Assembly (NCBI GenBank): GCA_029856155.1
Contig: JAHQWL010000092.1
Span: 21,489-85,488, forward strand
DNA: 64,000 bases
Direction of reading: 5' to 3'
Origin: Promethearchaeia archaeon
GTDB lineage: Archaea > Asgardarchaeota > Lokiarchaeia > Sigyniarchaeales > SOKP01
In this document: positions 50,559-63,899 of the stretch, in pieces
How positions within the stretch are numbered: the stretch's first letter is position 1
Layout of the letters: each line of letters opens with the position of its first letter
Position numbers and translations under genes: made by a program
Notes under the pieces: generated by a model
Told to the model about the DNA's origin: nothing
Databases searched by the model: none
What the model saw: only the letters and a program-made list of their open reading frames with translations

Positions 50559-51350
50559 TTAATTGTATCCCTTTCTTCTTACATGTTCTTTAATAAAAAA
50601 AGACGCGACTATTTCAGCATAGGTTCCTGGCCCAAATCCAGCATCATAACCTAATTCCTTTGCTAACTCATTATTTATTCTAGCTCCCCCGCAAATTAAA
50701 ATAATTTTATCTCTTATACCCTCTGCTTCCAAGAGATCAACTAATTGAGTTAAATTCTTTACATGTATATCCTTTTGAGTGACTGTCTGTGACACAAGTA
50801 AAACATCAGCCTTTAGCTCTATTGCTTTTTTAATAAATTCATCATTTGTTACTTGACTCCCTAAGTTGAAAGCTTCAATCATTTCATATTGTTCAAGACC
50901 ATAATGACCTGCGAAACCTTTCATATTAATAATTGCATCAATTCCAACAGTATGAGCATCTGTTCCAGTAGATGCTCCAAGAATTACCAGTTTACGTCCT
51001 ATCTTTTCTCTTATATAAGTATTTATTTCTTCTTTAGACATAATATCTACTTCTATATTTTCTACTTGAATTTTAGTATAATCGATAGTATGAATTGATT
51101 TTCCATAAACTACAAAAAAAGTGAATTTTTTGTCTAATGCTGAATGATATACTACTTCCGGATCTTTTAAACCCATTTTTTCTGTGAGTTCCTTAGCTGC
51201 CTCAATTGCCTTATCACCGTCTTCAACTGGAAATGTAAAACTTACTTGTACCTTTCCATCATTCATTGTATCTCCATAAGGTTTGATTCTTGTTAAATCA
51301 AGATTTTTATCAAAAGCTTCTTTTTCAGTTGAATATTGTCCTCCTCCCAT
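50559..51350 (-). CDS. kamE: Lysine 5,6-aminomutase beta subunit
   Basis: 'KPYGDTMNDGKVQ', 'GTDAHTVGIDA', 'MKG', 'SQTVTQ'. Confidence 0.95.
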   Translation of the reverse strand: MGGGQYSTEKEAFDKNLDLTRIKPYGDTMNDGKVQVSFTFPVEDGDKAIEAAKELTEKMGLKDPEVVYHSALDKKFTFFVVYGKSIHTIDYTKIQVENIEVDIMSKEEINTYIREKIGRKLVILGASTGTDAHTVGIDAIINMKGFAGHYGLEQYEMIEAFNLGSQVTNDEFIKKAIELKADVLLVSQTVTQKDIHVKNLTQLVDLLEAEGIRDKIILICGGARINNELAKELGYDAGFGPGTYAEIVASFFIKEHVRRKGYN

Positions 51351-51351
51351 T

Positions 51352-52950
51352 CTAGTTCCCTCCTTTTGTTAATTCTCTAGTCATAAGATCAATAAAGGGA
51401 TTAAAATAATTATTTCCTTTCTTAAATACACCATCTAAACCTTTGCCTCCATCTATTGGTCTTTTAATATTAGCAAAGATTCCTTTTTCAATCGTTTTGA
51501 ATAACCCTTCTTTTTCGATTTCCTTCAATAAATTATATGATTTATTAAGTATTTCATCGACTCGTCTTTCCATTAATCCCCCTTTTTTAAATACTATTTC
51601 TTCGCTAATAGATTTCATATTGTTAAATATATAGCGTGCATTTTCGATCGATAAAGCTCTATCGGACATAAAAGGTGTGTGTATTGCTTCTGTTAACATA
51701 CCGAGGAGGTGAATTCTTTGATTTGTCATAATAGTTATCATATTAAATAAAGCATCTTGAATATGACCCTTGAATATATTTCCTGTCATAAATTTAGTTG
51801 GAGGCATATATTTTAAAGGAGCTTTTGGAAAGATCTCTCGTGCCATTTGAGCTTGAGCAAGCTCATATAAAAAACCATTCTCTAAATCAGGATTCATTTC
51901 AAAAGCATGACCTAATCCCATTTGTTCCTCCTTTAATCCTGCCAGTAAGGCAAATTGTTCATTAATAAATTCTGAGGCAAGAACCGTGTGTGCAGCCTCA
52001 TAAGCATCTGCTGTAGTTAAATAATTATCTTCTCCAGTATTAATAATTACTCCCGCATATGCATTTATCATTCTTGAAAAGTATTGATCAATAATAGTTC
52101 TTTTCATGTTGATGTCCCGGAATAAAATTCCATAAAGGGCATCGTTGAGCATCATATCAAGCCTCTCAAATGCACCCATTGCCGCAATCTCTGGCATACA
52201 TAAACCAGAACAATAATTAGTAAGTCTTACATATCTCCCTAATTCTTCACCCACTTCATCTAATGCTTTTCTCATTAATCTAAAATTTTCTTGAGTTGCA
52301 TAAGTTCCACCAAATCCTTCAGTGGTTGCACCATAAGGTACATAATCGAGAAGACTTTGAACTGTAGATCGAATCACCGCAATTACATCCGCTCCCTGCC
52401 TTGCTGCTGCTTGAGCTTGAATAATATCTTCATAAATATTTCCTGTAGCAACAATAACATATATCAATGGTCCATCTTTGTCACCATATTTTTGAAGTAA
52501 TTCCTCTCTTTTTTTCCTATTTTGAGTTATATTTAATAGTGTTTCTTGAGCAATGAGATTTATAGTTGCTTTTATTTCAGAAAGATCCTTTAATGGCAAT
52601 TGTGTTAAATTTAATTCACCCTCCGCAATCATTTCTGCAATTTTTTGAGGTGATAAATTCGTGTGCAGAATAGCATTACCAATATGAATAGCAGCCCCAA
52701 TACCAAGACGATTCCCTTTTTTAATATTATCTACTACAATATTAGGGAGTGGTACATCAAACTCATCTACACCATCTATCCCTAGTAATCTACAAACTGT
52801 TCTTTCTATTGTTGTAGTAGTATGATTATCAATAAATTTTTGGGTCTTAAATGCGATTTTTTTAGCCGCTTCTCTAGCTTTACGCACTATAGAGAAATTT
52901 AAATTCAATTTACTTTCTTGTTGATTTCTATTTTCGGTCAAATTTTTCAC
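51352..52950 (-). CDS. kamD: Lysine 5,6-aminomutase alpha subunit
   Basis: 'YVIVATGNIYED', 'QSLLDYVPYGATTEGFGGT', 'NYCSGLCMPE', 'KYMPPTK'. Confidence 0.95.
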   Translation of the reverse strand: MKNLTENRNQQESKLNLNFSIVRKAREAAKKIAFKTQKFIDNHTTTTIERTVCRLLGIDGVDEFDVPLPNIVVDNIKKGNRLGIGAAIHIGNAILHTNLSPQKIAEMIAEGELNLTQLPLKDLSEIKATINLIAQETLLNITQNRKKREELLQKYGDKDGPLIYVIVATGNIYEDIIQAQAAARQGADVIAVIRSTVQSLLDYVPYGATTEGFGGTYATQENFRLMRKALDEVGEELGRYVRLTNYCSGLCMPEIAAMGAFERLDMMLNDALYGILFRDINMKRTIIDQYFSRMINAYAGVIINTGEDNYLTTADAYEAAHTVLASEFINEQFALLAGLKEEQMGLGHAFEMNPDLENGFLYELAQAQMAREIFPKAPLKYMPPTKFMTGNIFKGHIQDALFNMITIMTNQRIHLLGMLTEAIHTPFMSDRALSIENARYIFNNMKSISEEIVFKKGGLMERRVDEILNKSYNLLKEIEKEGLFKTIEKGIFANIKRPIDGGKGLDGVFKKGNNYFNPFIDLMTRELTKGGN

Positions 52951-52992
52951 ATTTTTAAAATTCTACATTAATTTTCAAACTTTTATTCTAAA

Positions 52993-54024
52993 TTAATTAT
53001 CCTTTCCAAGATCAAATACAGGAACATCAAGATTTTTTTTCATTAAATTTAAGAACGTGTTTTTTTCAAAATTATAACCCAATGGAGAAGTTGGGTTTAT
53101 AGTAACAGCAATTATTTTTATAGGTTTTAAAACTTTCAGGATTCCACCTTTTTTTTGGAATTTCTCTTTTATTTTTCTACTCAAAAAAAGTTTGGTGGGA
53201 TCTTCCACTAAAATTGTTATTTTTTTATATTTGTCCGTAAGACTCATTAAGTCTTCTAATAATTTATCGGTGAGTGCTCCTTTTATTACTATATATTTCG
53301 AATTTTCATCAAGGGCATTTGAAATATCTTTAGCTGAATCTAAAGAAGTTAATATATTAAGTAATTTAATGGAATTTTTGTTATCTATGATTCCCACATT
53401 TGATTTTTTTAGTATTTCATATGCAATCTCTCTTATTTCTTTTTCCTTTTCACTTTCTAAATTTAATAATTTTATTGTATGAACTGTCAAATTAATGACA
53501 TCTTGCATATCTTCTGATACAGATGCTCCTGTAGAAAGGATTGTTGCATCAGATATGATAGGGGTTGCATAGGATCTCCTATCAAAGGCACCATCGATAA
53601 GAATCAAATCACATCCTAAATTTTTTAAATCTACACAAATTTCGTGTAAATATTTGTTTATTGATGGTCCCGCTAGTTCAATAAGACCATCATTCAATGC
53701 CCTTAATATTAAAATTTCTCCTAATGGAGTGTTAAATTCTGTTTTTTTTAAAATTTCCATTTGGACTTCACTAACTTCAAAACTCTGTTTCGCCGTTGCT
53801 ACAATTGTACCCTTTTTAATAAATATTCTAGGTTTCGGTAGCTGTGTAATTACATCATATTTCTCTCCATCTCTTCCTATAGATGTTAGACCGAGTTTAT
53901 AACCTTCTAAATTCTTTATTATATAATTTAGTGTAGTGGTTTTACTGACATTTTTCGCGAGACCAATAATTGAAATAATTTTACACTTCTTGATTTCATT
54001 CAAAAAATTAGTCATGAAGTCCAT
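52993..54024 (-). CDS. kamB: Lysine 5,6-aminomutase reactivase subunit KamB-like
   Basis: 'SIIGLAKNVSKTT', 'TSIGRDGE', 'TPLG', 'IDGAFDR', 'ILSTGA', 'TINP'; directly upstream of kamD. Confidence 0.78.
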   Translation of the reverse strand: MDFMTNFLNEIKKCKIISIIGLAKNVSKTTTLNYIIKNLEGYKLGLTSIGRDGEKYDVITQLPKPRIFIKKGTIVATAKQSFEVSEVQMEILKKTEFNTPLGEILILRALNDGLIELAGPSINKYLHEICVDLKNLGCDLILIDGAFDRRSYATPIISDATILSTGASVSEDMQDVINLTVHTIKLLNLESEKEKEIREIAYEILKKSNVGIIDNKNSIKLLNILTSLDSAKDISNALDENSKYIVIKGALTDKLLEDLMSLTDKYKKITILVEDPTKLFLSRKIKEKFQKKGGILKVLKPIKIIAVTINPTSPLGYNFEKNTFLNLMKKNLDVPVFDLGKDN

Positions 54025-54164
54025 TTTCTCGCTAAAAACTGATGTGATTCTGATAGTAAGTGAAATAAATCTTAATTATATAAATTTTAGATATTGTTTA
54101 AAATTAGACTTAATCTATTTTTTCAATCAATTTCAATTCCAAAAAGAATTTTTAGGTAATGAGA

Positions 54165-55409
54165 TTAAGCTTGATTTAAAAGGGAAGCAATATAATCCCA
54201 TTTCTTATTAATTTTATCGGATGTGCGTAAACGGTTAAATATTTTATATTCAAAAGCGCCAATTAGGTTGTACATATGTTTTACTTCTTTATATATTTGT
54301 TGTTCTTCAAATTTTATCGTGTAGTTCTCAATTTTATTGAAAGTCCATAAGTTTTCATTGATCTCTATTCCAAGTTTTTTAGATTTAACAAAGTCTTCTA
54401 AATCTTGAGTGATCATACCAACCCAAAATTTCGCCATTTCCATAGAATAATAGAGTCCGGAAGAACCAAATGGATTTATAAATCCAGCGCTATCTCCCAA
54501 TATTAGTACACCAGGATTAGGAACGAACTTTTCAGCTATTTTTGCATTAGGTAAAGAAGTAATTTCTTCATAATCTATATTACAATTTTTTAAAAAAACA
54601 CTAAATCCCGGATAATTTTCTTTTATTTCATTCCAAACTCTTAAGATCTCCTCATTATCGGGTATCATCACAGTTTTCATATTGGGAACTTGAGACATTC
54701 TTAACATTAACCCTACTTCAGCCCTTCTATTTTCTAGAGGAAAGAAGTATGCCACACAAGGAGGAAACTCGCTTGCGTAACTTAGATCTCCGTTTCCTAA
54801 TAAAAAAAATTCTAAGTCAGGATTTTCTCTAATATTAAAATTTGCGTTACTAATAAGGCATTTTATTATCGGGCAATTCATTTTTGTATAATCTATTCCA
54901 TATGCTTTACCAATAACTCCTTCAAACCCGCTACAATCTAGTACCACATTACCTAATACTTCTTGAATTTGACCATCAGTACTTTTATACTTCACGCCGA
55001 TCGTTATTCCATGCTTCTCAATTGGTTCAATAACAGTGGAGTTAAACAACATTTTTACTCCTAAATCTTTCGCAACTTCAGTGAATCGATCAATAAATTT
55101 TCTCCATTCAAAGAAATAATGATCATGTCCACTGTATGTAGTAGTAATCTTTAAATCATTAGGTGAGTGCCATACTCTCCCACCGTTCGATTTAAAACCT
55201 ATAGAAGGTAAAAATCCTTCTCCCAATATCGCATCAACGATGGGCATATGAGCCATTCCTTCACCGCGTGGTTTTGGCCCAGCAAGTCTTCCCTTTTCTA
55301 AAATTATTGATGTGAAACCAAGTCTAGCGGCTGAAATTCCCGCTGTTAATCCAGCAGGTCCAGCACCAATTATAACAAAATTATAAAAACTAGAGTTTTC
55401 AGTATCCAT
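54165..55409 (-). CDS. Geranylgeranyl reductase-family FAD oxidoreductase
   Basis: 'IIGAGPAG', 'KPRGEG', 'YFFP', 'LGDSAGFINPFGSSG'. Confidence 0.78.
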   Translation of the reverse strand: MDTENSSFYNFVIIGAGPAGLTAGISAARLGFTSIILEKGRLAGPKPRGEGMAHMPIVDAILGEGFLPSIGFKSNGGRVWHSPNDLKITTTYSGHDHYFFEWRKFIDRFTEVAKDLGVKMLFNSTVIEPIEKHGITIGVKYKSTDGQIQEVLGNVVLDCSGFEGVIGKAYGIDYTKMNCPIIKCLISNANFNIRENPDLEFFLLGNGDLSYASEFPPCVAYFFPLENRRAEVGLMLRMSQVPNMKTVMIPDNEEILRVWNEIKENYPGFSVFLKNCNIDYEEITSLPNAKIAEKFVPNPGVLILGDSAGFINPFGSSGLYYSMEMAKFWVGMITQDLEDFVKSKKLGIEINENLWTFNKIENYTIKFEEQQIYKEVKHMYNLIGAFEYKIFNRLRTSDKINKKWDYIASLLNQA

Positions 55410-55523
55410 GTTTCAAAAGTAAGGGTCTAAGTAATTAAATCTTTTCGATCTATATTTTTAAATGCTATACTCAGTCATTCTTTAGTGTTTGTATAATTAT
55501 TCTTCAAATTAATAGCTAGAAAC

Positions 55524-55925
55524 CTAATCTAAAAAAGATATTAACTCTTCTCTTGATATTTCTTGTCTATGCTTTTGATCATTCCATAATTTACGGTATA
55601 TGTAAAAATATTCGTATAAATCTAATTCATTTGCCGAATAGAGTAATTCGCCGTTTTCAATTACTTGAATTTTAATATACAAAGGTAATTCTTGAAAAAC
55701 ACGTACATCATATTTTTTTGTGGTAACATTAACATTTTGTAATATAAAAGAAATCAATTGATGAATATCTTCGTTAGGGGCTATTATACAAATATCAATA
55801 TCACTTCTACTAGTCTCTTTATCCATTAGGTAAGAGCCATATAATAAAATTCCTAAAATTTCTTTTTTTTGAATTATAACTGAGAAATCAATACGAATTT
55901 GCTCTAGTAGTTTTTTTTTAACCAT
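55524..55925 (-). CDS. Minimal nucleotidyltransferase (MNT antitoxin)
   Basis: 'LLYGSY...SRSDIDICI', 'YDVRVFQELPLYIK'. Confidence 0.88.
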   Translation of the reverse strand: MVKKKLLEQIRIDFSVIIQKKEILGILLYGSYLMDKETSRSDIDICIIAPNEDIHQLISFILQNVNVTTKKYDVRVFQELPLYIKIQVIENGELLYSANELDLYEYFYIYRKLWNDQKHRQEISREELISFLD

Positions 55926-56035
55926 TCTTTAACACCCCCCATAAATTCTTTAAGATATTTTAAAAGATCAATTAATCTAGTAAAAGCTATATCATTAATT
56001 AAACCATTATAATCATGAACAATTATGGTATTATT
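55904..56035 (-). pseudogene. C-terminal remnant of a HEPN/DUF86 toxin
   Basis: Unannotated frame 'NNTIIVHDYNGLINDIAFTRLIDLLKYLKEFMGGVKEWLKKNY*' overlaps the MNT start; the catalytic Arg and the N-terminus are missing. Confidence 0.68.
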
Positions 56036-56060
56036 AATTATAAAATTGGGTAAAATAGTT

Positions 56061-56420
56061 TTATTTTTTTACCTCTTTCTTATCTTTTCCCGATATTCTC
56101 AAATCAATTCCCTCCTCATCTTTCCTATAAGGTTTCACAGGTTTTGATTTATCCATCGGAGCATTACATGCCCAACAAACGTTTTCTAAATTAGTCAATG
56201 CCTGGACACAACTTTCACAGTAATTAGCATTACATTCACATGCATACATGTAACCTTTTATTTCCCCTCTACAGACAAGGCAAATTTTCTGTTCTTTTTG
56301 AATTGTAAAATCCTCTTCAGTAACTTGAGTTGTCAACTTTGATCGATTTCGTAGCACTTGGAAAGCATCCTCATATTTATTCTTTTTAATGAGTTCTTTA
56401 GCACGAGTTAATTCTTTAGG
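56061..56420 (-). pseudogene. Probable C-terminal fragment of a Lokiarchaeia-type protein with a Cys-rich RING-like Zn finger
   Basis: 'EQKICLVCRG...YACECNANYCESC...CWAC'; the frame is open to 56420 with no ATG or clear RBS (GTG at 56357 is the only canonical start near the 5' end). Confidence 0.5.
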
Positions 56421-56530
56421 TTATGAGTTAAACAAATTTAAATCCTTATATAGTTTGATTTTAGACAAAGTTGGTTATTTCAAATAATATTAAGGATAAG
56501 GAATAATATAAGGATATTTAATATGAGTAT

Positions 56531-57769
56531 CTACTTAGTTAATTTTTTCCTTCTCAGTTTCCTTTTTAGATCGGCAGGTTCAATAGTAACTTTTTCACCA
56601 CTCAATAATGCACTGACTCCAATTTGCTTTTCACAATCTTCACAATGACAATTTGGGACATAGTCATTTGGTTCTTCATAAGTTGTTATGACTCCTTCAA
56701 AATTCCTCAATACAACACGAGTATTTCCTTGAGATATTGTATAACCTGGCATAACAGGTATTTTTCCACCGCCTCCTGGAGCATCAACAACAAACGTGGG
56801 TACACATAATCCTGAAGTATGACCTCTTAATCCTTCAATAATTTCAATACCTTGAGCTACACTTGTTCTAAAATGCCCAAGACCCAAAGAAAGGTCGCAT
56901 TGGTAAATGTAATATGGTCTCACACGAATTTTAACTAATTCGTGCACTAATTTTTTCATTATATGAATACAATCATTTACACCCTTTAACAAAACGGATT
57001 GATTTCCAAGAGGCATCCCAGCATTAGCTAACATCTCGCATGCTCTTTTAGAATCTTCTGTTATTTCATTTGGATGATTAAAGTGTGTATTAAACCAAAT
57101 AGGATGATATTTTTGGAGCATTTCGCATAATTCTGGAGTAATACGGAAAGGATTTGTAACTGGTGCCCTAGATCCTATACGTATTATTTCTATATGAGGT
57201 ATTTTTTTTAATTTTTTTAAAATTATTTCTAATTTTTCATCAGACATTAATAGAGCATCTCCTCCAGATAAGAGCACATCTCTAATAGAAGGAGTATTTT
57301 TTATATATTCAATACAAGCATCTATCTGTGATGGTTGCGGTCCCATATCAAGATGTCCCGCAAATCTTCTCCTTGTACAATGCCTACAATACATTGAACA
57401 TTTCTCTGTTACCAAAAATAAAACTCTGTCAGGGTATCGATGAGTTAAACCAGGAACAGGAGAATCAATATCTTCACTGAGTGGATCTTCCAAGTCACTA
57501 CTGCATCTATTTAATTCATGAATAGTTGGAATTGCTTGTTTTCTAATAGGATCATATGAGTCGTCAGGATCAATTAATGATAAGTAATATGGGGTAATTG
57601 CCATTCTATATTCCTCTAAAATTCGAGAATCATCTTCTTCCTTAGTCAAATTGATATATTTTTTAAGTTCTTCCAAAGTTTCAATCCTATTTCTAACTTG
57701 CCAATGCCAATCATTCCAATCCTTATCGCTAACGTTACCAAACAATTCTTTACGTCTATTGACTTTCAT
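56531..57769 (-). CDS. kamA: Lysine 2,3-aminomutase (radical SAM, PLP)
   Basis: 'WNDWHWQ', 'THRYPDR', '[12 protein letters not shown]', 'LSGGD', '[10 protein letters not shown]', C-terminal Zn Cys 'CHCEDC'. Confidence 0.95.
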
Positions 57770-58041
57770 ATTTTAATTCACTAATATCTGCAATATTTAA
57801 CTTAACTGACAATTAATTTAAAACGTTTATCCTCAAATAATTTATCTAATTTTTCATTTTTTATTAAAATCCTTTTCAATAATTTTTTATGAAAATATAA
57901 CCAAGATTTTAAGTTGTTTTGAAAATAAAGTAAAGAAAAGGATTTCAAACATATTTTTTCTTTCGGAGAAGAACCCCCAAAATATTGTAAAATAAAGTGA
58001 AAAATATTAGCTTCTAATAAGGTTTTTCTAACAACAAGAAG

Positions 58042-59082
58042 TTATGATATATATTTTTCTTTAAAGATGTTTCGTAGCATTTCTGATTCTTGTATTAAGT
58101 CCAAAGTAATTTGCGCATGATTTTTTGTATATCCATTACCGATAATCATTGTAACATCTTTTCCTACTCCTTCAGCACCTAAAGCTGCTTTAGTAAAGCT
58201 TGTTGCCATAGAAAAGAAATAAACTATTCCTCCATCTCTTACTGGTAAAATACTAGCCATTTCTGTATTAGGTATGCTTAAACAATTGATTGAAATGTCT
58301 ACTTCTTGTCCATTGTTCACATTTAAAGTTTCTTCTAATATATTTATAGGATTTCGAACATCACCTATAATAATCTTATGGCAAAAATTTGTATTTCTAA
58401 GAAATGCTGCACGCGATTCATTTCTTGCTTGTCCAATGACTATTCCTTTTTTCCCCACCATTTTTTTTGCCATATAGGAACACATTAAACCTGATTTTCC
58501 TGTAGCCCCAAGAATTAATACCACATTACCTTCTTTAACAAGCTTTTTTACTTGTGCTGGAGCACCTGCAACATCAAGGGCAGCCAACGCCAATGTATCT
58601 TCAATATCTTCAGGAATTTTAGCATATATTCCACTCTCAAAAAGAATGGCTTTTCCATTGATTTCTACTCTATCAATTTCAGGTTGAATTTTTAAGATTT
58701 TATTAATTCTCAGTGGTGTTAATGAAAGGGAAACTAGTGTAGCAATTTTGTCACCTATTTTTAAATCAGTTTTATTTTTTAATGCATCACCAATTTGTTC
58801 CACACGCCCCATAAGCATTCCACCAGAACCAGTCACCGGATTTTGCATTTTACCTTTTTCATTAACAATTTCCAATATTTTTACCTTTATTTTCTCAAGG
58901 TCGTCTTTTGCTTCTTCTTTTAATTGCATAAAACTCGCAGAATCAATATTTAAATAATCGACATTAATTAAAATTTCATTATCAAATATTTCCATATCAT
59001 TTGATATTTTTAATGCTGGTTGGGGAAGTGCTCCTTTAGGTTCTATAACTCGATGAGTTCCATATTTGTTTCCTTTTTTCAT
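58042..59082 (-). CDS. kdd: L-erythro-3,5-diaminohexanoate dehydrogenase
   Basis: 'YGTHRVIEP', 'LNIDSASF', 'NPVTGSGG', 'LDVAGAP', 'FTKAALGAEG'. Confidence 0.93.
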   Translation of the reverse strand: MKKGNKYGTHRVIEPKGALPQPALKISNDMEIFDNEILINVDYLNIDSASFMQLKEEAKDDLEKIKVKILEIVNEKGKMQNPVTGSGGMLMGRVEQIGDALKNKTDLKIGDKIATLVSLSLTPLRINKILKIQPEIDRVEINGKAILFESGIYAKIPEDIEDTLALAALDVAGAPAQVKKLVKEGNVVLILGATGKSGLMCSYMAKKMVGKKGIVIGQARNESRAAFLRNTNFCHKIIIGDVRNPINILEETLNVNNGQEVDISINCLSIPNTEMASILPVRDGGIVYFFSMATSFTKAALGAEGVGKDVTMIIGNGYTKNHAQITLDLIQESEMLRNIFKEKYIS

Positions 59083-59114
59083 ATTATCACTTAAATTAAT
59101 AATGTGTAACTTTT

Positions 59115-59837
59115 TTATGATTTCAATCCTATATAAAGCCCTCTGTCTTTCATTAAGCCATCTTTCAAATATTCTGTTTTAAATCCAGCTTCAGTCATAA
59201 TTTCTAAAAACTTTTCAATTTCGAAGAGTCCTAATTCGTGGCGATCAACAAAATACTTAACATCTTCATTTCTTTCAACAATTAAATGATGCATTTCCAT
59301 AACTGAAAGACCATCTTCTAATTTTGCTGTATTTAATCTCGCAATCTTAATATCTTCACCATCATAAGTGGTCATACCGGGGTGTCCTACCCAATAGGTA
59401 TCTTTTTTAAACCATGGTTCGATAATTGTTATTCCTCCTTTTTCTAAATGATTGGCAAAGTTAATTATTGTCTTTTTTAAATTTGGATATGTTTTTACAT
59501 AACCAATTGAACTAAACAAACATAAAATTATGTCGAATTTATCTTTGAGCTTTAAAGTTATCATGTCTGCTTGGGTGAAAATTACATTGCTAACCTTTTC
59601 TTTTGCAATATCCAACATTTCTGCATTAATATCAGTACCAGTACAAGAAAATTCATCTTTAAGATATTCTAAATGTTTTCCTGTACCACAACCGACATCT
59701 AGCAATTTATTACCATCAGATTTTTTATATTTCTTAATCAATTCCTTAATCTTACTGACTTCACCCTTATAATCTTTCCATGAATAGATTAAGTCATAAT
59801 ATTTTGCTAATTCCTTATACATAATTTCATCCTGCAA
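59115..59837 (-). CDS. Class I SAM-dependent methyltransferase
   Basis: 'YYDLIY..KDY', 'LLDVGCGTG', 'CLFSSIGY', 'EPW'. Confidence 0.88.
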   Translation of the reverse strand: MQDEIMYKELAKYYDLIYSWKDYKGEVSKIKELIKKYKKSDGNKLLDVGCGTGKHLEYLKDEFSCTGTDINAEMLDIAKEKVSNVIFTQADMITLKLKDKFDIILCLFSSIGYVKTYPNLKKTIINFANHLEKGGITIIEPWFKKDTYWVGHPGMTTYDGEDIKIARLNTAKLEDGLSVMEMHHLIVERNEDVKYFVDRHELGLFEIEKFLEIMTEAGFKTEYLKDGLMKDRGLYIGLKS

Positions 59838-59854
59838 AACTCAAATAAATTATT

Positions 59855-60673
59855 TTATAATAAACCTAAGATTTTGCGTGCTTCATCGGGCTTAGCAATT
59901 TCTCTCCCTAATTCATTTGCGATTCTAACAACTTTTTCTACCAGTTCCCCATTAGAATTTGCTAATATTCCTTTAGATAAATAGAGGTTATCTTCAAAAC
60001 CCACTCGAACATGCCCTCCTATAGCAATAGCAATAGCAGCCATATAAAACTGGTTTCTACCAACACCAGTTATGGTAAAAGTTGAACTCTTTGGGATACT
60101 TTGTACTAAAAAGAGTAAATTTTGACCATTTGCACTTATTGCACCGGGAACTCCTAATATAAAATTAAAATGCATAGGAGATTTAATAATAGCCTTATTA
60201 TTCAATGTTAAGGCCATATCGACCATACCCTTATCAAAACATTCTAATTCTGGTTTTATGCCTTTATTATTCATGCTTTTAGCAAATTCTATTATAGTAT
60301 TCTCTGTGTTAATAAAAATATCATCACCGCCGAAATTGCACGTACCACAATCTAAAGTTGCCATTTCTGGATTTAAATTGAGAGGTTGGAGTCTTTCCTC
60401 ATTAGACATACCTATCGCACCTCCAGTCGAAGGTTGTATTATAACATCTGGGCATTTTTTCGATATCTCTTCTATGCAAGCTTTATACCTATTAATATCT
60501 TGAGTAGGTGTTCCATCATCATAACGAACATGTAAGTGTATAATACTAGCACCTAATTTATATGCCATCTCTGCTTCGTTTGATATCTCTTCAATCGTAT
60601 ATGGAACATTCTTATTTTGTTCCTTGGTTACTTCAGCACCACTTATTGCAGCAGTAATTATTAATTTCTCCAT
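59855..60673 (-). CDS. kce: 3-keto-5-aminohexanoate cleavage enzyme
   Basis: 'IITAAISGAE', 'IHLHVR', 'QPSTGG', 'PEMATL', 'HVRVGFED'. Confidence 0.93.
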   Translation of the reverse strand: MEKLIITAAISGAEVTKEQNKNVPYTIEEISNEAEMAYKLGASIIHLHVRYDDGTPTQDINRYKACIEEISKKCPDVIIQPSTGGAIGMSNEERLQPLNLNPEMATLDCGTCNFGGDDIFINTENTIIEFAKSMNNKGIKPELECFDKGMVDMALTLNNKAIIKSPMHFNFILGVPGAISANGQNLLFLVQSIPKSSTFTITGVGRNQFYMAAIAIAIGGHVRVGFEDNLYLSKGILANSNGELVEKVVRIANELGREIAKPDEARKILGLL

Positions 60674-60686
60674 TTATTAACCTTCT

Positions 60687-61067
60687 TTATTTACGTTGTT
60701 TGTCTTTGGGAACTACACATATACCAGTAGCTTTACATACAATAATTGGGACTTCTAAAACTTCTGCGGCTGACTCATTTATATCAGTTCTAGGTATGAT
60801 AACTTTCCTCGCTTCAAACCTCATTTTTCGAGAGGTATTTCCAATATCTGTTATTTCTCCTTCCGCTTCTATGTAATCTCCTGCATAAACGGGAGCTAAA
60901 AATTCTATGTTATCGTAAGCTCTAAAAAGACCCTCATCACCATCATTTATAATTAAAAGCTCTGTTGCTATATCACCAAAAAGCTCTAACATTTTGGCAC
61001 CATCTACCAAATTTCCTCCATAATGCGCATCATGGAGACTCATTCTTAATCTTATTAACGATTTCAA
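60687..61067 (-). CDS. kal: 3-aminobutyryl-CoA ammonia lyase (hotdog fold)
   Basis: '[17 protein letters not shown]', '[10 protein letters not shown]', 'FLAPVYAGD', 'GNTSR'; TTG start with GAGGAG RBS. Confidence 0.93.
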
Positions 61068-61328: not shown

Positions 61329-63899
61329 TTAGTCATCTTCTTGTGGCATCTCTATAGGTTTAGTTCCAGTTTTGTCTCCGATAAGTTTTAATATCTCAGA
61401 ACCGAAAACATTTGACAAGATATCATTCATCTCTTTTCCACCCAAATAGCTTTGACAGCCTAAATGAAGTTTATGGAAGGTGTCACTAAATTGATCTTCA
61501 ACATCCTTAATGAAATTAATAATTTTATCTTCTAAAGTCGGTGATGGAATCTCATTCAGTAAAAATACTACTTTAAATTCTCTATTTGTAAAAAATCCCC
61601 CCGATAGATGGCCAAGGCTAAATTTTATTGATAATATTTCTCCTACTTTTAATGCATGACTAGCAATATGATCCAATGCAGTGAGAAAACCAGAAAAAAT
61701 AGTATTATCAACATCTTCAGTGGTAAAATTTAACTCATATTGATTAGCACCACTTTCTCGATGCTGAACCAATAATTTCTGTATGTTTTCAATATCTGGA
61801 TCTACGATAAAAGGCTTTGTTAAGAAATTGTAAATATCTTCAGGTGAATTCTTAAGCACTTTAAACAATTTTTTAGGTCTATAGCCATATTCTGGTCCAG
61901 TAGGGTCTTCCCAACTTGGATCATTAATCAGTTCAGTTGCAGCTCGACCACTATTTCTCATTATACCTACTTGTGCCCCGAAAACGATAGCTAAATGATA
62001 CTCAAAAGAAGCTATGCTTCCACCATTAACCCCTATAAGTTTTACCTTATTTGGAACTATACCACATTTCATTATATCATACCAATATTGAATAGGTTCT
62101 CTAATACTGAAATCTTTTCCTTCTGTAAAATGAATTGAAGAATATCTTTTATCTAGTTCAACATGAGCTGGCATATGACTTGGTAAGTAACCTATAGTTC
62201 TTATATTATTAGGATATTTTTCTTGAATATCTCCTACAGTATTGCTAATTCCTGATGTAGTACCACCTGAAATTATGACACCTTTAAAATTATTGAAAGC
62301 ATCAATTAAATTATTATTAAATATCTCCAAATTTCTTTCTATACGCTTATCTGTCCCACCAGCAATAATTACAATAGATTCATCAAATTTTGTTTCCATT
62401 TGTTTCATTTCAGAATCTAATACCAACGTAGATTCATTAATCATTTTATCTGTTTTTTCGATTACATTTGGATGAAAAATCATCCCTAATCGTAGAACTT
62501 GTCTCACTAAACTAATATTTTTTATTTTATCTTCTATTATCTTGAGATTATTTAATGTATCTAGAGTAGTTTCAATCATCCAAATATCGGAACTATATCT
62601 TATTCCTTTTAAATAATAATCTAAAGCGTCATTAATATTTCCAAGAAATAAATTAAATAAACCTACATCAAAAAAAGCCCATGGAGCATCAACCATTACT
62701 TGTATTTGTCTTATTCGTTTTTTTATGGCTTTTTGGATCATATCATAATTTCTTTCAATATGGATTAAATCTCCCGTTTGTTGAATTATTAAGATTAAAT
62801 AATTACCTAATGGATAGGGATCTCCGGGTTTCACTTTCAATGCTTGCTTATAACATTCTAAAGCTTTAGTATAATTTTTTTGACTTTTATAAGTACCTCC
62901 TAATGATGACCATCCATTAGAATCAAAAGGATTTCTTTGAGCTGCTTCTCTTAAATAATTCTGCCCTCGTAAGAATTCATTACCCATAGGGTTTTTTTTA
63001 TATTTTTTATGATGAGATATCCCAAGATCTCTTAAAATCTCTGCTACTTCTAATTCTGACGCTTGTTTAAAGGATTCAGTTTTCATTAATTCGTTCAATA
63101 TTTCAATACTCTTATCCATATCGTTAATTGCCATTGCTAATTTTGCTATTCTATAACCATTCTTAAAATTTTCTTTGTCTGCTTTATATACCATTTCTAA
63201 TCTTTCAATTTCAGATTTGATTTTTTCGTTAGACATATACGTAATTATTGTAGATTTATAATCTCGCATTTTCTTCATAATTTTATTCAATGATTCATCT
63301 TCAATAGTCAACAAAGATTTTACTCGACTGAGTTCTTGGTCATACGGCTTAGGTACTTTAAATTCATACTGATTAAAGACTTTGTATTGATTTGCGGCCC
63401 ATCCATAACTCAAATATGTGCATATTTGAATTTCTGCTTTTAAATTAAAAATTTCGTCTGGTATTTTTAATTCAAGTCTTTCATATAGCTTTAATTCAGG
63501 CATCAGTTGAACAACATAGGTTTGGAAATGTCCTAAAGAAGCACTAATTTCACTTAATTCGGACATTTCATGCCCGTTTACAGTATCAAATAAAAAATTA
63601 TCTCGAATTGCCTCACTAACTGTATTTAATTCATTAATATTGGGCAAAATTATCCGAAATCCACATATATCATTAATTTCTAAAAAAGGAATAGTAATAT
63701 TTGTTTCTGATTTAAATAATTTATTTGCAAAACTAGAAATTTTCTTTACTCTTCCTTGTATGATAAATTCAGATGAATAACCTCTCACGATATTTTTAAG
63801 GACTTTTTTCATGTATTTATGAAATTCTTTGTAAAGAGGTCGTAATTTTTTATATTCATTAATTTGTTCTTCAAAAATTTCGCGTTTTTCTAATTCCAT
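61329..63899 (-). CDS. Multidomain protein: RelA/SpoT-like nucleotidyltransferase, TPR, SLOG-like and longin-like domains
   Basis: 'GRVKKISSF', 'NDICGFRI', 'EIQICT'; TPR 'GWSSLGGTY...ALECYKQAL'; SLOG-like 'IIAGGT', 'ISGGTTSGI', 'NGG', 'SGRAA'; longin-like 'ESG...IFSGFLTAL'. Confidence 0.7.
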   Translation of the reverse strand: MELEKREIFEEQINEYKKLRPLYKEFHKYMKKVLKNIVRGYSSEFIIQGRVKKISSFANKLFKSETNITIPFLEINDICGFRIILPNINELNTVSEAIRDNFLFDTVNGHEMSELSEISASLGHFQTYVVQLMPELKLYERLELKIPDEIFNLKAEIQICTYLSYGWAANQYKVFNQYEFKVPKPYDQELSRVKSLLTIEDESLNKIMKKMRDYKSTIITYMSNEKIKSEIERLEMVYKADKENFKNGYRIAKLAMAINDMDKSIEILNELMKTESFKQASELEVAEILRDLGISHHKKYKKNPMGNEFLRGQNYLREAAQRNPFDSNGWSSLGGTYKSQKNYTKALECYKQALKVKPGDPYPLGNYLILIIQQTGDLIHIERNYDMIQKAIKKRIRQIQVMVDAPWAFFDVGLFNLFLGNINDALDYYLKGIRYSSDIWMIETTLDTLNNLKIIEDKIKNISLVRQVLRLGMIFHPNVIEKTDKMINESTLVLDSEMKQMETKFDESIVIIAGGTDKRIERNLEIFNNNLIDAFNNFKGVIISGGTTSGISNTVGDIQEKYPNNIRTIGYLPSHMPAHVELDKRYSSIHFTEGKDFSIREPIQYWYDIMKCGIVPNKVKLIGVNGGSIASFEYHLAIVFGAQVGIMRNSGRAATELINDPSWEDPTGPEYGYRPKKLFKVLKNSPEDIYNFLTKPFIVDPDIENIQKLLVQHRESGANQYELNFTTEDVDNTIFSGFLTALDHIASHALKVGEILSIKFSLGHLSGGFFTNREFKVVFLLNEIPSPTLEDKIINFIKDVEDQFSDTFHKLHLGCQSYLGGKEMNDILSNVFGSEILKLIGDKTGTKPIEMPQEDD

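What the first reader, a model, noticed from the sequence alone, without database searches (positions are those of the whole stretch)
61329..63899. RelA/SpoT-like synthetase fused to TPR, SLOG-like and longin-like domains: possible Asgard nucleotide-signalling hub
Seen: alarmone-synthetase-type motifs (RxK, D-x-x-G-x-R, EIQ, with 'EIQICT' in place of EIQIRT), TPRs, SLOG-like glycine motifs, and a C-terminal segment resembling Asgard longin-like domains ('ESG...FSGFLTAL'). Established: canonical (p)ppGpp signalling is rare in archaea, SLOG domains bind or process nucleotides in conflict and signalling systems, and longin domains partner small GTPases. Inference: one polypeptide that could make and sense a nucleotide signal and connect it to GTPase or membrane-trafficking-like machinery. 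Some catalytic residues look degenerate, so the synthetase may be inactive.
Basis: partly seen in the sequence, partly recalled or inferred. Interest (0 to 1): 0.7.

Follow-up and report, generated by a model that had tools for sequence, protein, structure and literature searches.

The report
TIR-linked RelA/SpoT–TPR–SLOG–longin signalling protein
This Lokiarchaeial gene does fuse an alarmone-synthetase-like domain, TPR repeats, a TRPM-type nucleotide-binding SLOG domain and a longin-fold tail, but its relatives sit next to TIR-domain genes, so it is most likely the signal-reading half of an undescribed Thoeris-like immune or signalling system and not a ppGpp or membrane-traffic hub.

Summary
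ORF 61329-63899 (minus strand, 856 aa) has four domains supported by profiles and folds: RelA/SpoT-like NTase, TPR, LSDAT-type SLOG and a C-terminal longin/roadblock-fold domain that is predicted to homodimerise.

The core RelA/SpoT-TPR-SLOG protein (~665 aa) is widespread and patchy across bacterial and archaeal phyla. There it keeps all canonical synthetase motifs and sits with NUDIX (40/66 loci), TIR (24/66) and TrkA_N-RyR genes (21-25/66).

The 855-aa longin-bearing form is one Lokiarchaeial clade:
- A TIR-domain gene lies within 4.5 kb in 12 of 14 genome loci; the other two are cut by contig ends.
- It has no NUDIX partner.
- Its acceptor site is remodelled: GYRSxH became GHFQTY, the last His is lost, and the window's copy has EIQICT.

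In the window itself the contig ends 101 nt upstream of the gene, so the TIR partner cannot be seen. No GTPase linkage was found.

Best reading: a SLOG-gated receiver/effector of a TIR-made, NAD-derived signal (Thoeris-like), with an altered or inactive synthetase domain. Other follow-ups in this scan reached the same reading on other genomes; I reached the TIR link independently before reading them.

The parts
61329..63899 (-). Whole ORF, 856 aa: RelA/SpoT-like - TPR - SLOG - longin-like
   Evidence: 45 homologues were found, about 30 of them full-length (~855 aa) with the same architecture.
63360..63899 (-). RelA/SpoT-like nucleotidyltransferase domain (residues 1-180), followed by a long helix to about residue 221
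   Evidence: Pfam PF04607 38.2 bits. A family profile against PDB sequences gives RelP/RelQ at E~1e-15 and CapRel 7ztb at 1.7e-7. VIA Z 15.2 to SAS1 5dec. It is the least conserved domain in the clade, 56% mean pairwise identity.
63732..63752 (-). RVKKISS = RxKxxxS motif (residues 50-56), retained
63654..63671 (-). DICGFR = DxxGxR motif (residues 77-82), retained; D77 is invariant
63516..63533 (-). GHFQTY (residues 123-128) in place of the canonical GY[RL]SxH acceptor-site motif
   Evidence: 60/61 non-Loki homologues keep GY[RL]SxH; 0/14 Loki members do. Also.
63417..63434 (-). EIQICT (residues 156-161); Glu and Gln are kept, Arg is replaced by Cys
   Evidence: Cys occurs only in the window's sub-clade; other Loki members have R, G, H or S.
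63381..63401 (-). WAANQYK (residues 167-173) in place of WA..xH[DE]; the last conserved His is lost
62400..63359 (-). Helical linker and TPR region (residues 181-500), with weak TPR-S likeness
   Evidence: TPR_1 42.7 bits at residues 329-359; TPR-S 14.5 bits here, up to 26 bits in relatives. All-helical in the model. VIA and Foldseek match TPR proteins.
61815..62387 (-). SLOG domain, LSDAT_prok type (residues 505-695), with motifs IIAGGTD, ISGGTTSG, VNGGSIASFE and SGRAA
61374..61814 (-). Longin/roadblock-fold domain (residues 696-842), topology beta-beta-alpha-beta-beta-beta-alpha-alpha; predicted homodimer
   Evidence: AF2 pLDDT 92. Foldseek and VIA hits are all longin/roadblock. No Pfam hit. 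The domain family has 1080 representatives at E<=1e-3. Dimer prediction scores 0.61 against 0.00 for the best control.

Best explanation
The protein is the receiver/effector half of a TIR-based, Thoeris-like nucleotide signalling system of Lokiarchaeia.

Proposed mechanism (inferred):
1. A neighbouring TIR-domain protein carries a variable sensor part (membrane plus coiled-coil, beta-helix, or short forms) and turns NAD+ into an ADP-ribose-derived signal when triggered.
2. The signal binds the LSDAT-type SLOG domain, possibly with help from the TPR(-S-like) region.
3. The 856-aa protein is a dimer through its longin-fold tail. Binding changes its conformation or assembly and releases the N-terminal RelA/SpoT-like domain.

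State of the RelA/SpoT-like domain:
- In the ~665-aa ancestral form, found in many bacteria and archaea, this domain has all synthetase motifs. It probably pyrophosphorylates a nucleotide or RNA end to stop growth. An adjacent NUDIX hydrolase probably acts as the brake.
- In the Loki 855-aa clade the donor (ATP/Mg) motifs remain, but the acceptor site is rebuilt and NUDIX is gone. The domain therefore either acts on a different acceptor or only binds ATP.

Shown here: the four domains, the motif states, the gene linkage and the single origin of the clade.
Inferred: the signal, its binding to SLOG, the enzymatic output and an immune role.
For: TIR linkage:
- A TIR_2 gene lies directly upstream on the same strand in the 97% orthologues G276, G189 and G177, in the 69% orthologue G273 and in G071.
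- It lies two genes upstream in G207, convergent and adjacent in G147, and divergent next to the 37% homologue P0040.
- In the genome contigs set, 12/14 Loki loci have a TIR ORF within 4.5 kb. Across all 36 TIR-bearing loci (Loki and others) the median gap is ~590 nt. These genomes hold only 1-13 TIR_2 genes each.
- The 671-aa Loki paralogues in G231, G246 and G255 have a second TIR subtype directly upstream.
- G171 has LRR-TIR, TIR_2 and a DUF4062-STAND gene around its copy.

Wider family:
- Outside Loki, 24/66 loci have TIR, 40/66 have NUDIX and 21-25/66 have TrkA_N-RyR.
- Distribution is patchy: 18/301 genomes of the phylum and 10/21 of the genus.
- The tree is taxonomically scrambled, with a single Loki clade (support 99) sister to the Loki 669-aa form.

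Domain evidence:
- The SLOG fold matches the TRPM2 MHR1/2 domain (Z 15.9). That this TRPM2 domain binds ADP-ribose is my own knowledge, not a tool result.
- TIR-SLOG sensing is the logic of type I Thoeris, and type VIII Thoeris uses a TPR-bearing effector (bioRxiv 10.64898/2025.12.03.692087; PMC9503650).
- The RSH domain hits the PADLOC defence candidate PDC-S33 and CapRel.
- Motif dichotomy between Loki and other members.
Against: - In the window itself no TIR gene can be seen. The contig ends 101 nt upstream, and no orthologue of the 833-aa TIR partner is in this assembly.
- Three 855-aa homologues (P0033, P0034, P0030) show no TIR_2 within 6-10 kb.
- The TIR and RSH genes are ~500 nt apart, so they are not an obvious operon.
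- The gene keeps conserved synteny with amino-acid catabolism genes and evolves like a vertically inherited gene within the clade.
- The effector domain has lost two canonical motifs, so an enzymatic output is uncertain.
- No signal, binding or antiviral effect has been measured.
- Related genomes are not independent samples.
Confidence: 0.62

Rival explanations
1. The protein makes an alarmone-like nucleotide with its RelA/SpoT domain, senses it (or GTP/ATP status) with SLOG, and passes the state to small GTPases or membrane-traffic-like machinery through the longin domain. TIR plays no part.
For: - The donor-site motifs RxKxxxS, DxxGxR and ExQ are retained, and D77 is invariant.
- The longin/roadblock fold is a known GTPase platform; top fold matches include TRAPP, Mon1-Ccz1, MglB, LAMTOR and Loki Rag-like GTPase C-terminal domains.
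- A dimer is predicted.
- One locus has an Arf-like gene ~6 kb away.
Against: - No GTPase is a recurrent neighbour in 80 loci.
- The acceptor motifs needed for (p)ppGpp synthesis are lost in the whole clade.
- The gene is absent from about half of the genomes of its own genus.
- TIR linkage is strong.
- The same longin-like domain is mostly fused to 7TM or other sensor-type proteins, not to GTPase partners.
Confidence: 0.12
2. A domesticated pseudoenzyme regulator. The Loki clade has left immunity. The worn RelA/SpoT domain only binds ATP, SLOG reads an NAD- or ADPR-type metabolite, and the dimeric protein regulates metabolism, for example the neighbouring arginine and lysine catabolism genes.
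For: - Synteny with aminotransferase, OTCase, carbamate kinase and lysine-fermentation genes is conserved across 63-97% orthologues.
- The RSH domain is the least conserved part (56% against 63-69%).
- Several members lost further catalytic residues: P0031/32 lost R50, G80, R82 and E156; P0040 lost R50 and K52.
- The NUDIX brake is lost.
Against: - The TIR neighbour is retained in most Loki loci, and its TIR domain is itself well conserved (59-90% between genomes).
- The replaced motifs are themselves conserved within the clade (GH[FY]QTY, WAANQYK). This argues for a new function of the site, not decay.
- The metabolic neighbours differ beyond the genus.
Confidence: 0.12
3. SLOG is the enzyme. 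It acts as a LOG-like N-glycosidase or nucleotide-processing enzyme on a nucleotide made or modified by the RelA/SpoT domain, giving a two-step nucleotide-modifying enzyme, or a signal-degrading one.
For: - The SLOG domain keeps LOG-like motifs (GGTxxG and NGGxxxxxE with near-invariant E633).
- It matches LOG-family structures at Z 14-18.
- Some SLOG clades are enzymes (PMC9503650).
Against: - Pfam places it in LSDAT_prok, the TRPM-type family. To my knowledge the known members of that family bind ligand and do not catalyse.
- No member matches the LOG family model.
- TIR and NUDIX contexts fit a sensor.
Confidence: 0.07

Closest known systems
Thoeris systems with SLOG or TPR-bearing effectors: type I (ThsB TIR + ThsA SIR2-SLOG), type III (several TIRs + SLOG effector), type VIII (effector with a TPR thought to perceive cADPR)
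   Same: A TIR-domain gene sits next to a gene whose product has a SLOG ligand-binding domain fused to an effector-type domain. Distribution is patchy and prone to transfer. TIR partners vary in their sensor parts. One locus has E1/JAB/E2-like ancillary genes, as in some Thoeris operons.
   Different: The effector domain is RelA/SpoT-like, which is not among the effectors of the verified types I-XI in bioRxiv 10.64898/2025.12.03.692087. The SLOG is of the LSDAT (TRPM) type. There is a long TPR region and, in Loki, a longin-fold tail. The genes are ~500 nt apart. No defence or signal has been shown.
Small alarmone synthetases RelQ/RelP (SAS1/SAS2)
   Same: Same fold (Z 14-15; TM 0.70 by target) and same donor-site motifs RxKxxxS, DxxGxR and ExQ.
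   Different: GYRSxH, the Arg of EIQIRT and the last His are replaced in the window's protein. The domain is fused to three further domains. The family is not universal in its own genus.
Toxic RSH enzymes of defence and TA systems (CapRel, FaRel/PhRel toxSAS; PADLOC candidate PDC-S33)
   Same: An RSH-type domain used as a growth-arresting effector in conflict contexts. The family profile hits CapRel at 1.7e-7 and PDC-S33 at 2.5e-10 to 4e-17.
   Different: There is no CapRel-type C-terminal sensor domain. Control would be by a small-molecule sensor (SLOG), not by direct binding of a phage protein. The substrate is unknown.
TRPM2-type N-terminal SLOG (MHR1/2) with NUDT9-H
   Same: The SLOG is of the same Pfam family line (LSDAT) and matches structurally (Z 15.9 over 192 residues). 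The wider family is linked to a NUDIX gene in 40/66 loci, echoing the SLOG + NUDIX pairing of TRPM2.
   Different: It is not an ion channel. NUDIX is a separate small protein and is absent from the Loki clade.
Asgard and eukaryotic longin/roadblock domains (TRAPP Bet5/TRAPPC1, VAMP7 longin, MglB, Loki Roadblock and Roadblock-Longin proteins)
   Same: Same fold and topology. The predicted homodimer uses the helix-1 end and edge strand beta3, the usual dimer mode.
   Different: No sequence-level match to any Pfam longin or roadblock family. No GTPase partner gene. The domain belongs to an unnamed family of about 1080 representative proteins, mostly 7TM + domain.

Membership tests
RelA/SpoT homologue (RSH) synthetase domain, PF04607 | Profile match above the curated cut-off and SAS-like fold | tested here: met
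   38.2 bits against a cut-off of 27. Family profile gives E~1e-15 to RelP/RelQ. VIA Z 15.2, 177 residues aligned, rmsd 3.2 to 5dec.
RelA/SpoT homologue (RSH) synthetase domain, PF04607 | Donor (ATP/Mg) motifs RxKxxxS, DxxGxR and the Glu/Gln of ExQxRT | tested here: met
   RVKKISS, DICGFR, EIQ. R50, K52, D77, G80, R82, E156 and Q158 are invariant in the 17-sequence RSH alignment.
RelA/SpoT homologue (RSH) synthetase domain, PF04607 | Acceptor-site motif GY[RK]SxH, the Arg of ExQxRT and the last His of HxWA..xH | tested here: not met
   GHFQTY, EIQICT and WAANQYK in the window. All 14 Loki loci lack GYxSxH and the last His; 60/61 non-Loki homologues keep them.
RelA/SpoT homologue (RSH) synthetase domain, PF04607 | Synthesis of (p)ppGpp or (p)ppApp, or pyrophosphorylation of tRNA | not testable with these tools
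   Needs an enzyme assay.
SLOG superfamily, LSDAT_prok (PF18171) | Profile match and Rossmannoid SLOG fold with glycine-rich loops | tested here: met
   25.4 bits on the whole protein and 30.9 bits on the domain alone; 18/18 members match, best 8.4e-13. VIA Z 18.1 to 1rcu, 15.9 to TRPM2 8sr7 and 15.0 to MCP 2iz5. Motifs confirmed.
SLOG superfamily, LSDAT_prok (PF18171) | Binding of a nucleotide or ADPR-derived ligand | not testable with these tools
   Needs binding assays.
Longin/roadblock fold | beta-beta-alpha-beta-beta-beta-alpha topology and structural match to longin/roadblock domains | tested here: met
   Model pLDDT 92, pTM 0.86. All 50 top VIA rows are longin/roadblock, Z 7.7-10.9. Foldseek E 1e-4 to 2e-3.
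Longin/roadblock fold | Sequence membership in a named longin or roadblock family | tested here: not met
   No Pfam hit at E<=1 for residues 680-856. No PDB sequence hit with the domain profile. The protein-atlas lead to Roadblock/Fuz_longin scored only 0.85.
Longin/roadblock fold | Works with a small GTPase | tested here: inconclusive
   No recurrent GTPase neighbour in 80 loci. Neighbourhood alone cannot exclude a partner encoded elsewhere.
Thoeris-like TIR signalling system | TIR-domain gene adjacent to the effector gene | tested here: met
   Met in relatives: 12/14 Loki loci and 24/66 others within 4.5 kb, with details. For the window's own copy it cannot be judged, because the contig ends 101 nt upstream.
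Thoeris-like TIR signalling system | Effector carries a small-molecule sensor domain fused to an output domain | tested here: met
   SLOG (and a TPR-S-like region) fused to the RSH-like domain.
Thoeris-like TIR signalling system | Catalytically competent TIR (conserved Glu) | tested here: inconclusive
   Both TIR subtypes keep a Glu in the S..[WY/A]...E stretch. It aligns with the ...WCWDE... stretch of the TIR protein Cat1 at E 0.06 only. No activity was tested.
Thoeris-like TIR signalling system | Effector belongs to a described Thoeris effector family (ThsA, C-L) | tested here: not met
   No SIR2, Macro, caspase-like or other listed effector domain. The terms alarmone, pyrophosphokinase and nucleotidyltransferase do not occur in the main text of the survey of types I-XI. 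Its supplementary tables were not read.
Thoeris-like TIR signalling system | Protection against viruses and an identified signal molecule | not testable with these tools
   Needs experiments.

The most novel reading that the evidence does not exclude
In Lokiarchaeia, a bacterial-type TIR-NUDIX-RelA/SpoT-SLOG immune module was rebuilt into a new signalling device. The rebuilt RelA/SpoT site makes (or binds) a nucleotide other than (p)ppGpp. The added longin-fold dimer passes the TIR-derived signal on to Asgard regulatory machinery such as small GTPases. That would be a direct link between prokaryotic TIR immunity and eukaryote-like longin/GTPase regulation.
Probability: 0.15. Interest if true: 0.88.

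Novelty: new variant of a known kind. Interest (0 to 1): 0.72.

Why it matters
- If the reading holds, RelA/SpoT-type enzymes join the outputs that TIR-made nucleotide signals can switch on. This would tie alarmone-type chemistry to Thoeris-like immunity.
- The ~665-aa core with its NUDIX, TIR and TrkA_N-RyR partners is spread over many bacterial and archaeal phyla. To my knowledge it is untested, so it is a ready candidate defence system for standard phage assays.
- (p)ppGpp has not been found in archaea (PMC10249747). This family does not change that, because its site for the guanine acceptor is gone.

Tried and rejected
- **Conserved operon partner in the window.** None can be seen. The downstream genes are lysine-fermentation genes, which are syntenic only among close relatives.
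- **TIR partner in this assembly.** A search with the 833-aa partner of the 97% orthologue found only TIR domains of other proteins, at 49-58% identity. Absence cannot be told from an assembly gap.
- **Sequence-level identity of the C-terminal and SLOG domains.** Pfam gave nothing for the C-terminal domain. Profile searches of PDB sequences gave nothing for either domain. Only fold comparison identified the C-terminal domain.
- **Protein atlas.** It gave only a 0.85-score lead to Roadblock/Fuz_longin.
- **P0038 (GTP_EFTU + TPR + SLOG).** This looked like a GTPase fusion, but it sits on a 1974-nt contig and is most likely a chimeric assembly. I did not use it.
- **Literature.** No paper was found that describes a RelA/SpoT-SLOG fusion or an Asgard alarmone synthetase. 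Burroughs et al. 2015 (PMC4678834), which defined the SLOG families, is not held, so I could not check whether it lists this architecture.
- **RNA evidence.** RNA-library contigs of three studies cover only 150-300-nt pieces of the gene at 95-99% identity. DNA carry-over cannot be excluded, so this is no more than a hint of transcription.
- **Rejected reading: housekeeping stringent-response enzyme.** The gene was found in only 10 of 21 genomes of its genus and 18 of 301 of the phylum with this query.
Full report
**1. The observation**

The finding's coordinates are exactly one ORF on the minus strand, 61329-63899, encoding 856 aa.
- RVKKISS (residues 50-56), DICGFR (77-82), EIQICT (156-161).
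- The glycine motifs IIAGGTD, ISGGTTSG and VNGGSIASFE.
- FSGFLTAL (735-742).

Pfam gives RelA_SpoT at 38.2 bits (cut-off 27), TPR_1 at 42.7 bits and LSDAT_prok (SLOG) at 25.4 bits, which equals its cut-off. The SLOG domain scanned alone gives 30.9 bits, and all 18 family members tested match that model and no other SLOG family.

A full-length AlphaFold2 model (38-sequence alignment, pLDDT 81.6, pTM 0.74) was compared with about 48,000 PDB representatives:
- Residues 507-696 match SLOG structures: TM1055 Z 18.1, TRPM2 MHR1/2 Z 15.9, LOG proteins Z 14, DprA Z 13.6.
- Residues 13-214 match small alarmone synthetases: SAS1 Z 15.2, RelP Z 14.8.
- Residues 223-500 match TPR proteins.

**2. The C-terminal domain**

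Residues about 696-842 have no Pfam match and no sequence match in the PDB. A profile of the domain finds 1080 representative proteins at E<=1e-3. Most are 350-440-aa proteins in which the domain follows about 7 membrane helices. Ten varied members carry no Pfam family over this domain.

Modelled alone with 56 diverse sequences, it folds with pLDDT 92 and pTM 0.86 as beta-beta-alpha-beta-beta-beta-alpha-alpha. Every one of the 50 best structural matches is a longin or roadblock domain:
- TRAPPC1 Z 10.9
- Loki Roadblock3 Z 10.7
- MglB Z 10.5
- VAMP7 longin Z 10.1
- also AP mu/sigma, Mon1-Ccz1 and LAMTOR

Two copies are predicted to pair through the end of helix 1 and strand beta3. The score is 0.61 against 0.00 for the best of three controls. 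That mark was reached by 20 of 30 proteins solved as pairs and 1 of 23 solved as single chains. The runs agree in at least 75% of contacts, and partner pLDDT is at least 85. This is the usual roadblock/longin dimer mode, so the pass may partly reflect likeness to solved dimers.

**3. The family**

A word-indexed search found 45 homologues. About 30 are full-length (~855 aa) with the same architecture, at 52-97% identity, and those that carry names are called Lokiarchaeota or Promethearchaeota.

In a sample of 301 genomes of the phylum, 18 have a match. All but one are in the window's own family, and only 10 of 21 genomes of its genus have one, although many of the others are 94-99% complete. 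Only three candidates per genome were scored, so this is "not found with this query", not proof of absence.

A scan of one genome per species gave 80 loci:
- 14 are Promethearchaeota loci with the 855-aa form.
- 66 encode a ~665-aa RelA/SpoT-TPR-SLOG core without the longin domain. They come from Chloroflexota, Planctomycetota, Bacteroidota, Actinomycetota, Gemmatimonadota, Bacillota, Thermodesulfobacteriota and other bacteria, and from Thermoplasmatota, Bathyarchaeia and methanogens.

A FastTree of the shared core (647 columns) puts all 855-aa proteins in one clade (support 99). That clade is sister to a 669-aa Lokiarchaeial paralogue (support 100) and nested in a tree where phyla are thoroughly mixed. 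The longin-bearing form therefore arose once, inside Lokiarchaeia, from a widely transferred ancestor.

**4. State of the synthetase site**

All homologues were aligned to a profile of the domain.

- 60 of 61 alignable non-Loki proteins keep every canonical motif: RxKxxxS, DxxGxR, GY[RL]SxH, ExQx[RK]T and HxWA..xH[DE].
- All 14 Loki loci keep the first two motifs and ExQ. They have GH[FY]QTY-like sequences in place of GYxSxH, and NQYK in place of the last His motif.
- The window's sub-clade also has Cys for the Arg of EIQIRT. Other members have Gly, His or Ser there.
- A few members have lost more: P0031/32 lost R50, G80, R82 and E156; P0040 lost R50 and K52.

From my knowledge of RelQ, RelP and Rel structures, the lost residues line the pocket for the acceptor nucleotide, and the retained ones hold ATP and magnesium.

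Within the clade, the RelA/SpoT domain is the least conserved part (56% mean pairwise identity, against 63% for TPR, 64% for longin and 69% for SLOG). However, the replacement motifs are themselves conserved. Canonical (p)ppGpp synthesis is unlikely. A changed acceptor or an ATP-binding, non-catalytic role both remain open.

**5. Gene neighbourhood**

In the window the contig ends 101 nt upstream of the start codon. Downstream lie thioesterase, BKACE, methyltransferase, KDD, lysine aminomutase and related genes. This order is shared only with close relatives.

The informative side is upstream, and it is visible in relatives.

*TIR genes next to the 855-aa form:*
- In the 97% orthologues G276, G189 and G177, in the 69% orthologue G273 and in G071, a TIR_2-domain gene lies directly upstream on the same strand.
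- In G207 it is two genes upstream.
- In G147 it is adjacent and convergent.
- Next to the 37% homologue P0040 it is divergent, about 950 nt away.

*Nature of the TIR proteins:*
- Their TIR domains are alike (59-90% identity).
- Their other parts vary: four membrane helices plus coiled-coil repeats (833 aa), beta-helix repeats (1638-1697 aa), or a short 254-aa form.

*TIR genes next to the 671-aa Lokiarchaeial paralogues:*
- G231, G246 and G255 have a second TIR subtype directly upstream. G246 has three in tandem.
- In G171 the 669-aa paralogue sits between a DUF4062-AAA_16-TPR STAND protein and a 700-aa coiled-coil-TPR-degenerate-SLOG-longin protein. An LRR-TIR protein follows, and a TIR_2 protein lies 5 kb away.

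*Counts with my own profiles over the 80 loci, within 4.5 kb (Pfam identities of representatives):*
- Loki loci: TIR 12/14 (the other two are cut by contig ends), NUDIX 0/14, TrkA_N-RyR 0/14.
- Other loci: NUDIX 40/66 (mostly immediately upstream on the same strand), TIR 24/66 (alone or fused to NACHT/STAND), a ~600-aa TrkA_N + RyR protein 21-25/66, and a ClpB-like AAA+ protein in 8.

These genomes hold only 1-13 TIR_2 genes each. Chance adjacency would be about 2-3% per locus. Related genomes are not independent, but the linkage recurs with different orientations, TIR subtypes, partner architectures and phyla.

Exceptions: P0033, P0034 and P0030 show no TIR_2 within 6-10 kb. P0034 has a DUF4062-TPR STAND gene and a second RelA/SpoT-TPR gene beside it, and P0030 has HEPN and Band_7 genes nearby.

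**6. Mechanism**

The pairing of a TIR gene with a SLOG-bearing protein is the logic of type I Thoeris, where a TIR-made cyclic ADP-ribose isomer binds the SLOG of ThsA and switches on its SIR2 domain. Type III Thoeris also has a SLOG effector. Type VIII has an effector with a TPR thought to perceive cADPR. Some Thoeris operons carry Cap2/Cap3-type genes (bioRxiv 10.64898/2025.12.03.692087; PMC9503650). The P0040 locus has ThiF, JAB and UFC1-like genes beside its TIR gene.

The SLOG here is of the TRPM type, whose eukaryotic members bind ADP-ribose (my knowledge). The wider family's NUDIX neighbour fits an ADPR- or pyrophosphate-centred chemistry.

The RelA/SpoT domain matches the defence candidate PDC-S33 and the defence toxin CapRel.

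My best reading is that TIR makes the signal, SLOG (perhaps with the TPR region) reads it, and the RelA/SpoT-like domain is the output. The longin tail holds two chains together. The Loki clade lost NUDIX and rebuilt the acceptor pocket together, which suggests the original toxic product is no longer made there. All of this is inference from linkage and homology. Nothing has been measured.

**7. What is not supported**

- No GTPase gene recurs near the family.
- The longin-like domain family is mainly attached to membrane or sensor-type proteins.
- The gene is not universal in its genus.

I therefore rate the "hub to GTPase or membrane traffic" reading low, although the fold itself leaves a GTPase partner possible.

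[quoted passage not shown] This family does not overturn that.

**8. Novelty and earlier notes**

I found no paper that describes this architecture or an RSH-type Thoeris effector. The 2015 paper that defined the SLOG families could not be read, and the supplementary tables of the Thoeris survey were not read.

Other follow-ups in this scan, on other genomes, reached the same TIR-linked reading. I had reached it before reading them. One of them pointed me to type III Thoeris, which I then checked in the paper.

I class this as a new variant of a known kind: TIR-to-SLOG signalling with a new output domain, plus an Asgard-specific longin addition.

A weak hint of transcription comes from RNA-library contigs of three studies that cover short pieces of the gene at 95-99% identity.

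Noticed in passing
G000:C88 (L002:1210-2535, minus) and G000:C103 (L003:1246-2568, minus): Two paralogous ~440-aa proteins in the same genome combine about 7 membrane helices with the same longin-like domain (31% and 24% identity to the window's C-terminal domain). Each lies directly downstream of a 233-240-aa winged-helix protein. This 7TM + domain form is the commonest architecture of the unnamed domain family.
   Followed up: partly
L020 (G171:C38:1-14000): A conflict-type island in a genome of the same genus: a DUF4062-AAA_16-TPR STAND protein (1330 aa), a 669-aa RelA/SpoT-TPR-S-SLOG protein with near-canonical motifs, a 700-aa coiled-coil-TPR-degenerate-SLOG-longin protein, an LRR-TIR protein (438 aa), an LRR protein and a TIR_2 protein (189 aa).
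   Followed up: partly
L025:6525-8105, L024:858-2507, L005:7754-9334: A 526-aa coiled-coil protein with no clear Pfam family (two sub-threshold hits in one copy) lies upstream of the TIR/RSH pair in three relatives. It is more conserved (72-78% identity) than the RSH gene itself. The stretch between it and the RSH gene holds variable TIR proteins.
   Followed up: partly
L038:340-5054: Next to the 845-aa homologue P0040 lie a 555-aa TIR_2 protein and ThiF (E1-like), Prok-JAB and UFC1-like (E2-like) genes. This resembles the Cap2/Cap3-type ancillary genes reported for some Thoeris operons.
   Followed up: no
L055-L120 (66 bacterial and archaeal loci): The ~665-aa RelA/SpoT-TPR-SLOG core has recurrent neighbours: a ~140-aa NUDIX gene immediately upstream (40/66), TIR or TIR-NACHT genes (24/66), a ~600-aa TrkA_N + RyR protein (21-25/66) and a ClpB-like AAA+ protein (8). 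One homologue (P0044) has the RyR domain fused at its C-terminus, where the Loki form has the longin domain.
   Followed up: partly
window 50559-61067: A lysine-fermentation-type gene cluster lies directly downstream of the gene: 4HBT thioesterase, BKACE, methyltransferase, KDD, lysine 2,3-aminomutase and D-lysine 5,6-aminomutase. In the 97% relative G276 an aminotransferase gene directly follows the RSH gene instead, so the order of the cluster differs between close relatives.
   Followed up: no
P0038 (1974-nt metagenome contig): A 501-aa product joins the first 83 residues of a GTP_EFTU domain to the TPR-SLOG part of this family. It is most likely a chimeric assembly and not a real GTPase fusion.
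   Followed up: no
G071:C47:27530-30210: The homologue in this genome is split into two open frames (616 and 339 aa), meaning a frameshift or a sequencing error. A TIR gene is still directly upstream.
   Followed up: no
window 61981-63875: Contigs from metatranscriptome libraries of three studies (soil and sediment) cover 150-300-nt pieces of the gene at 95-99% identity. DNA runs from marine sediment and salt-marsh samples hold most of it.
   Followed up: partly
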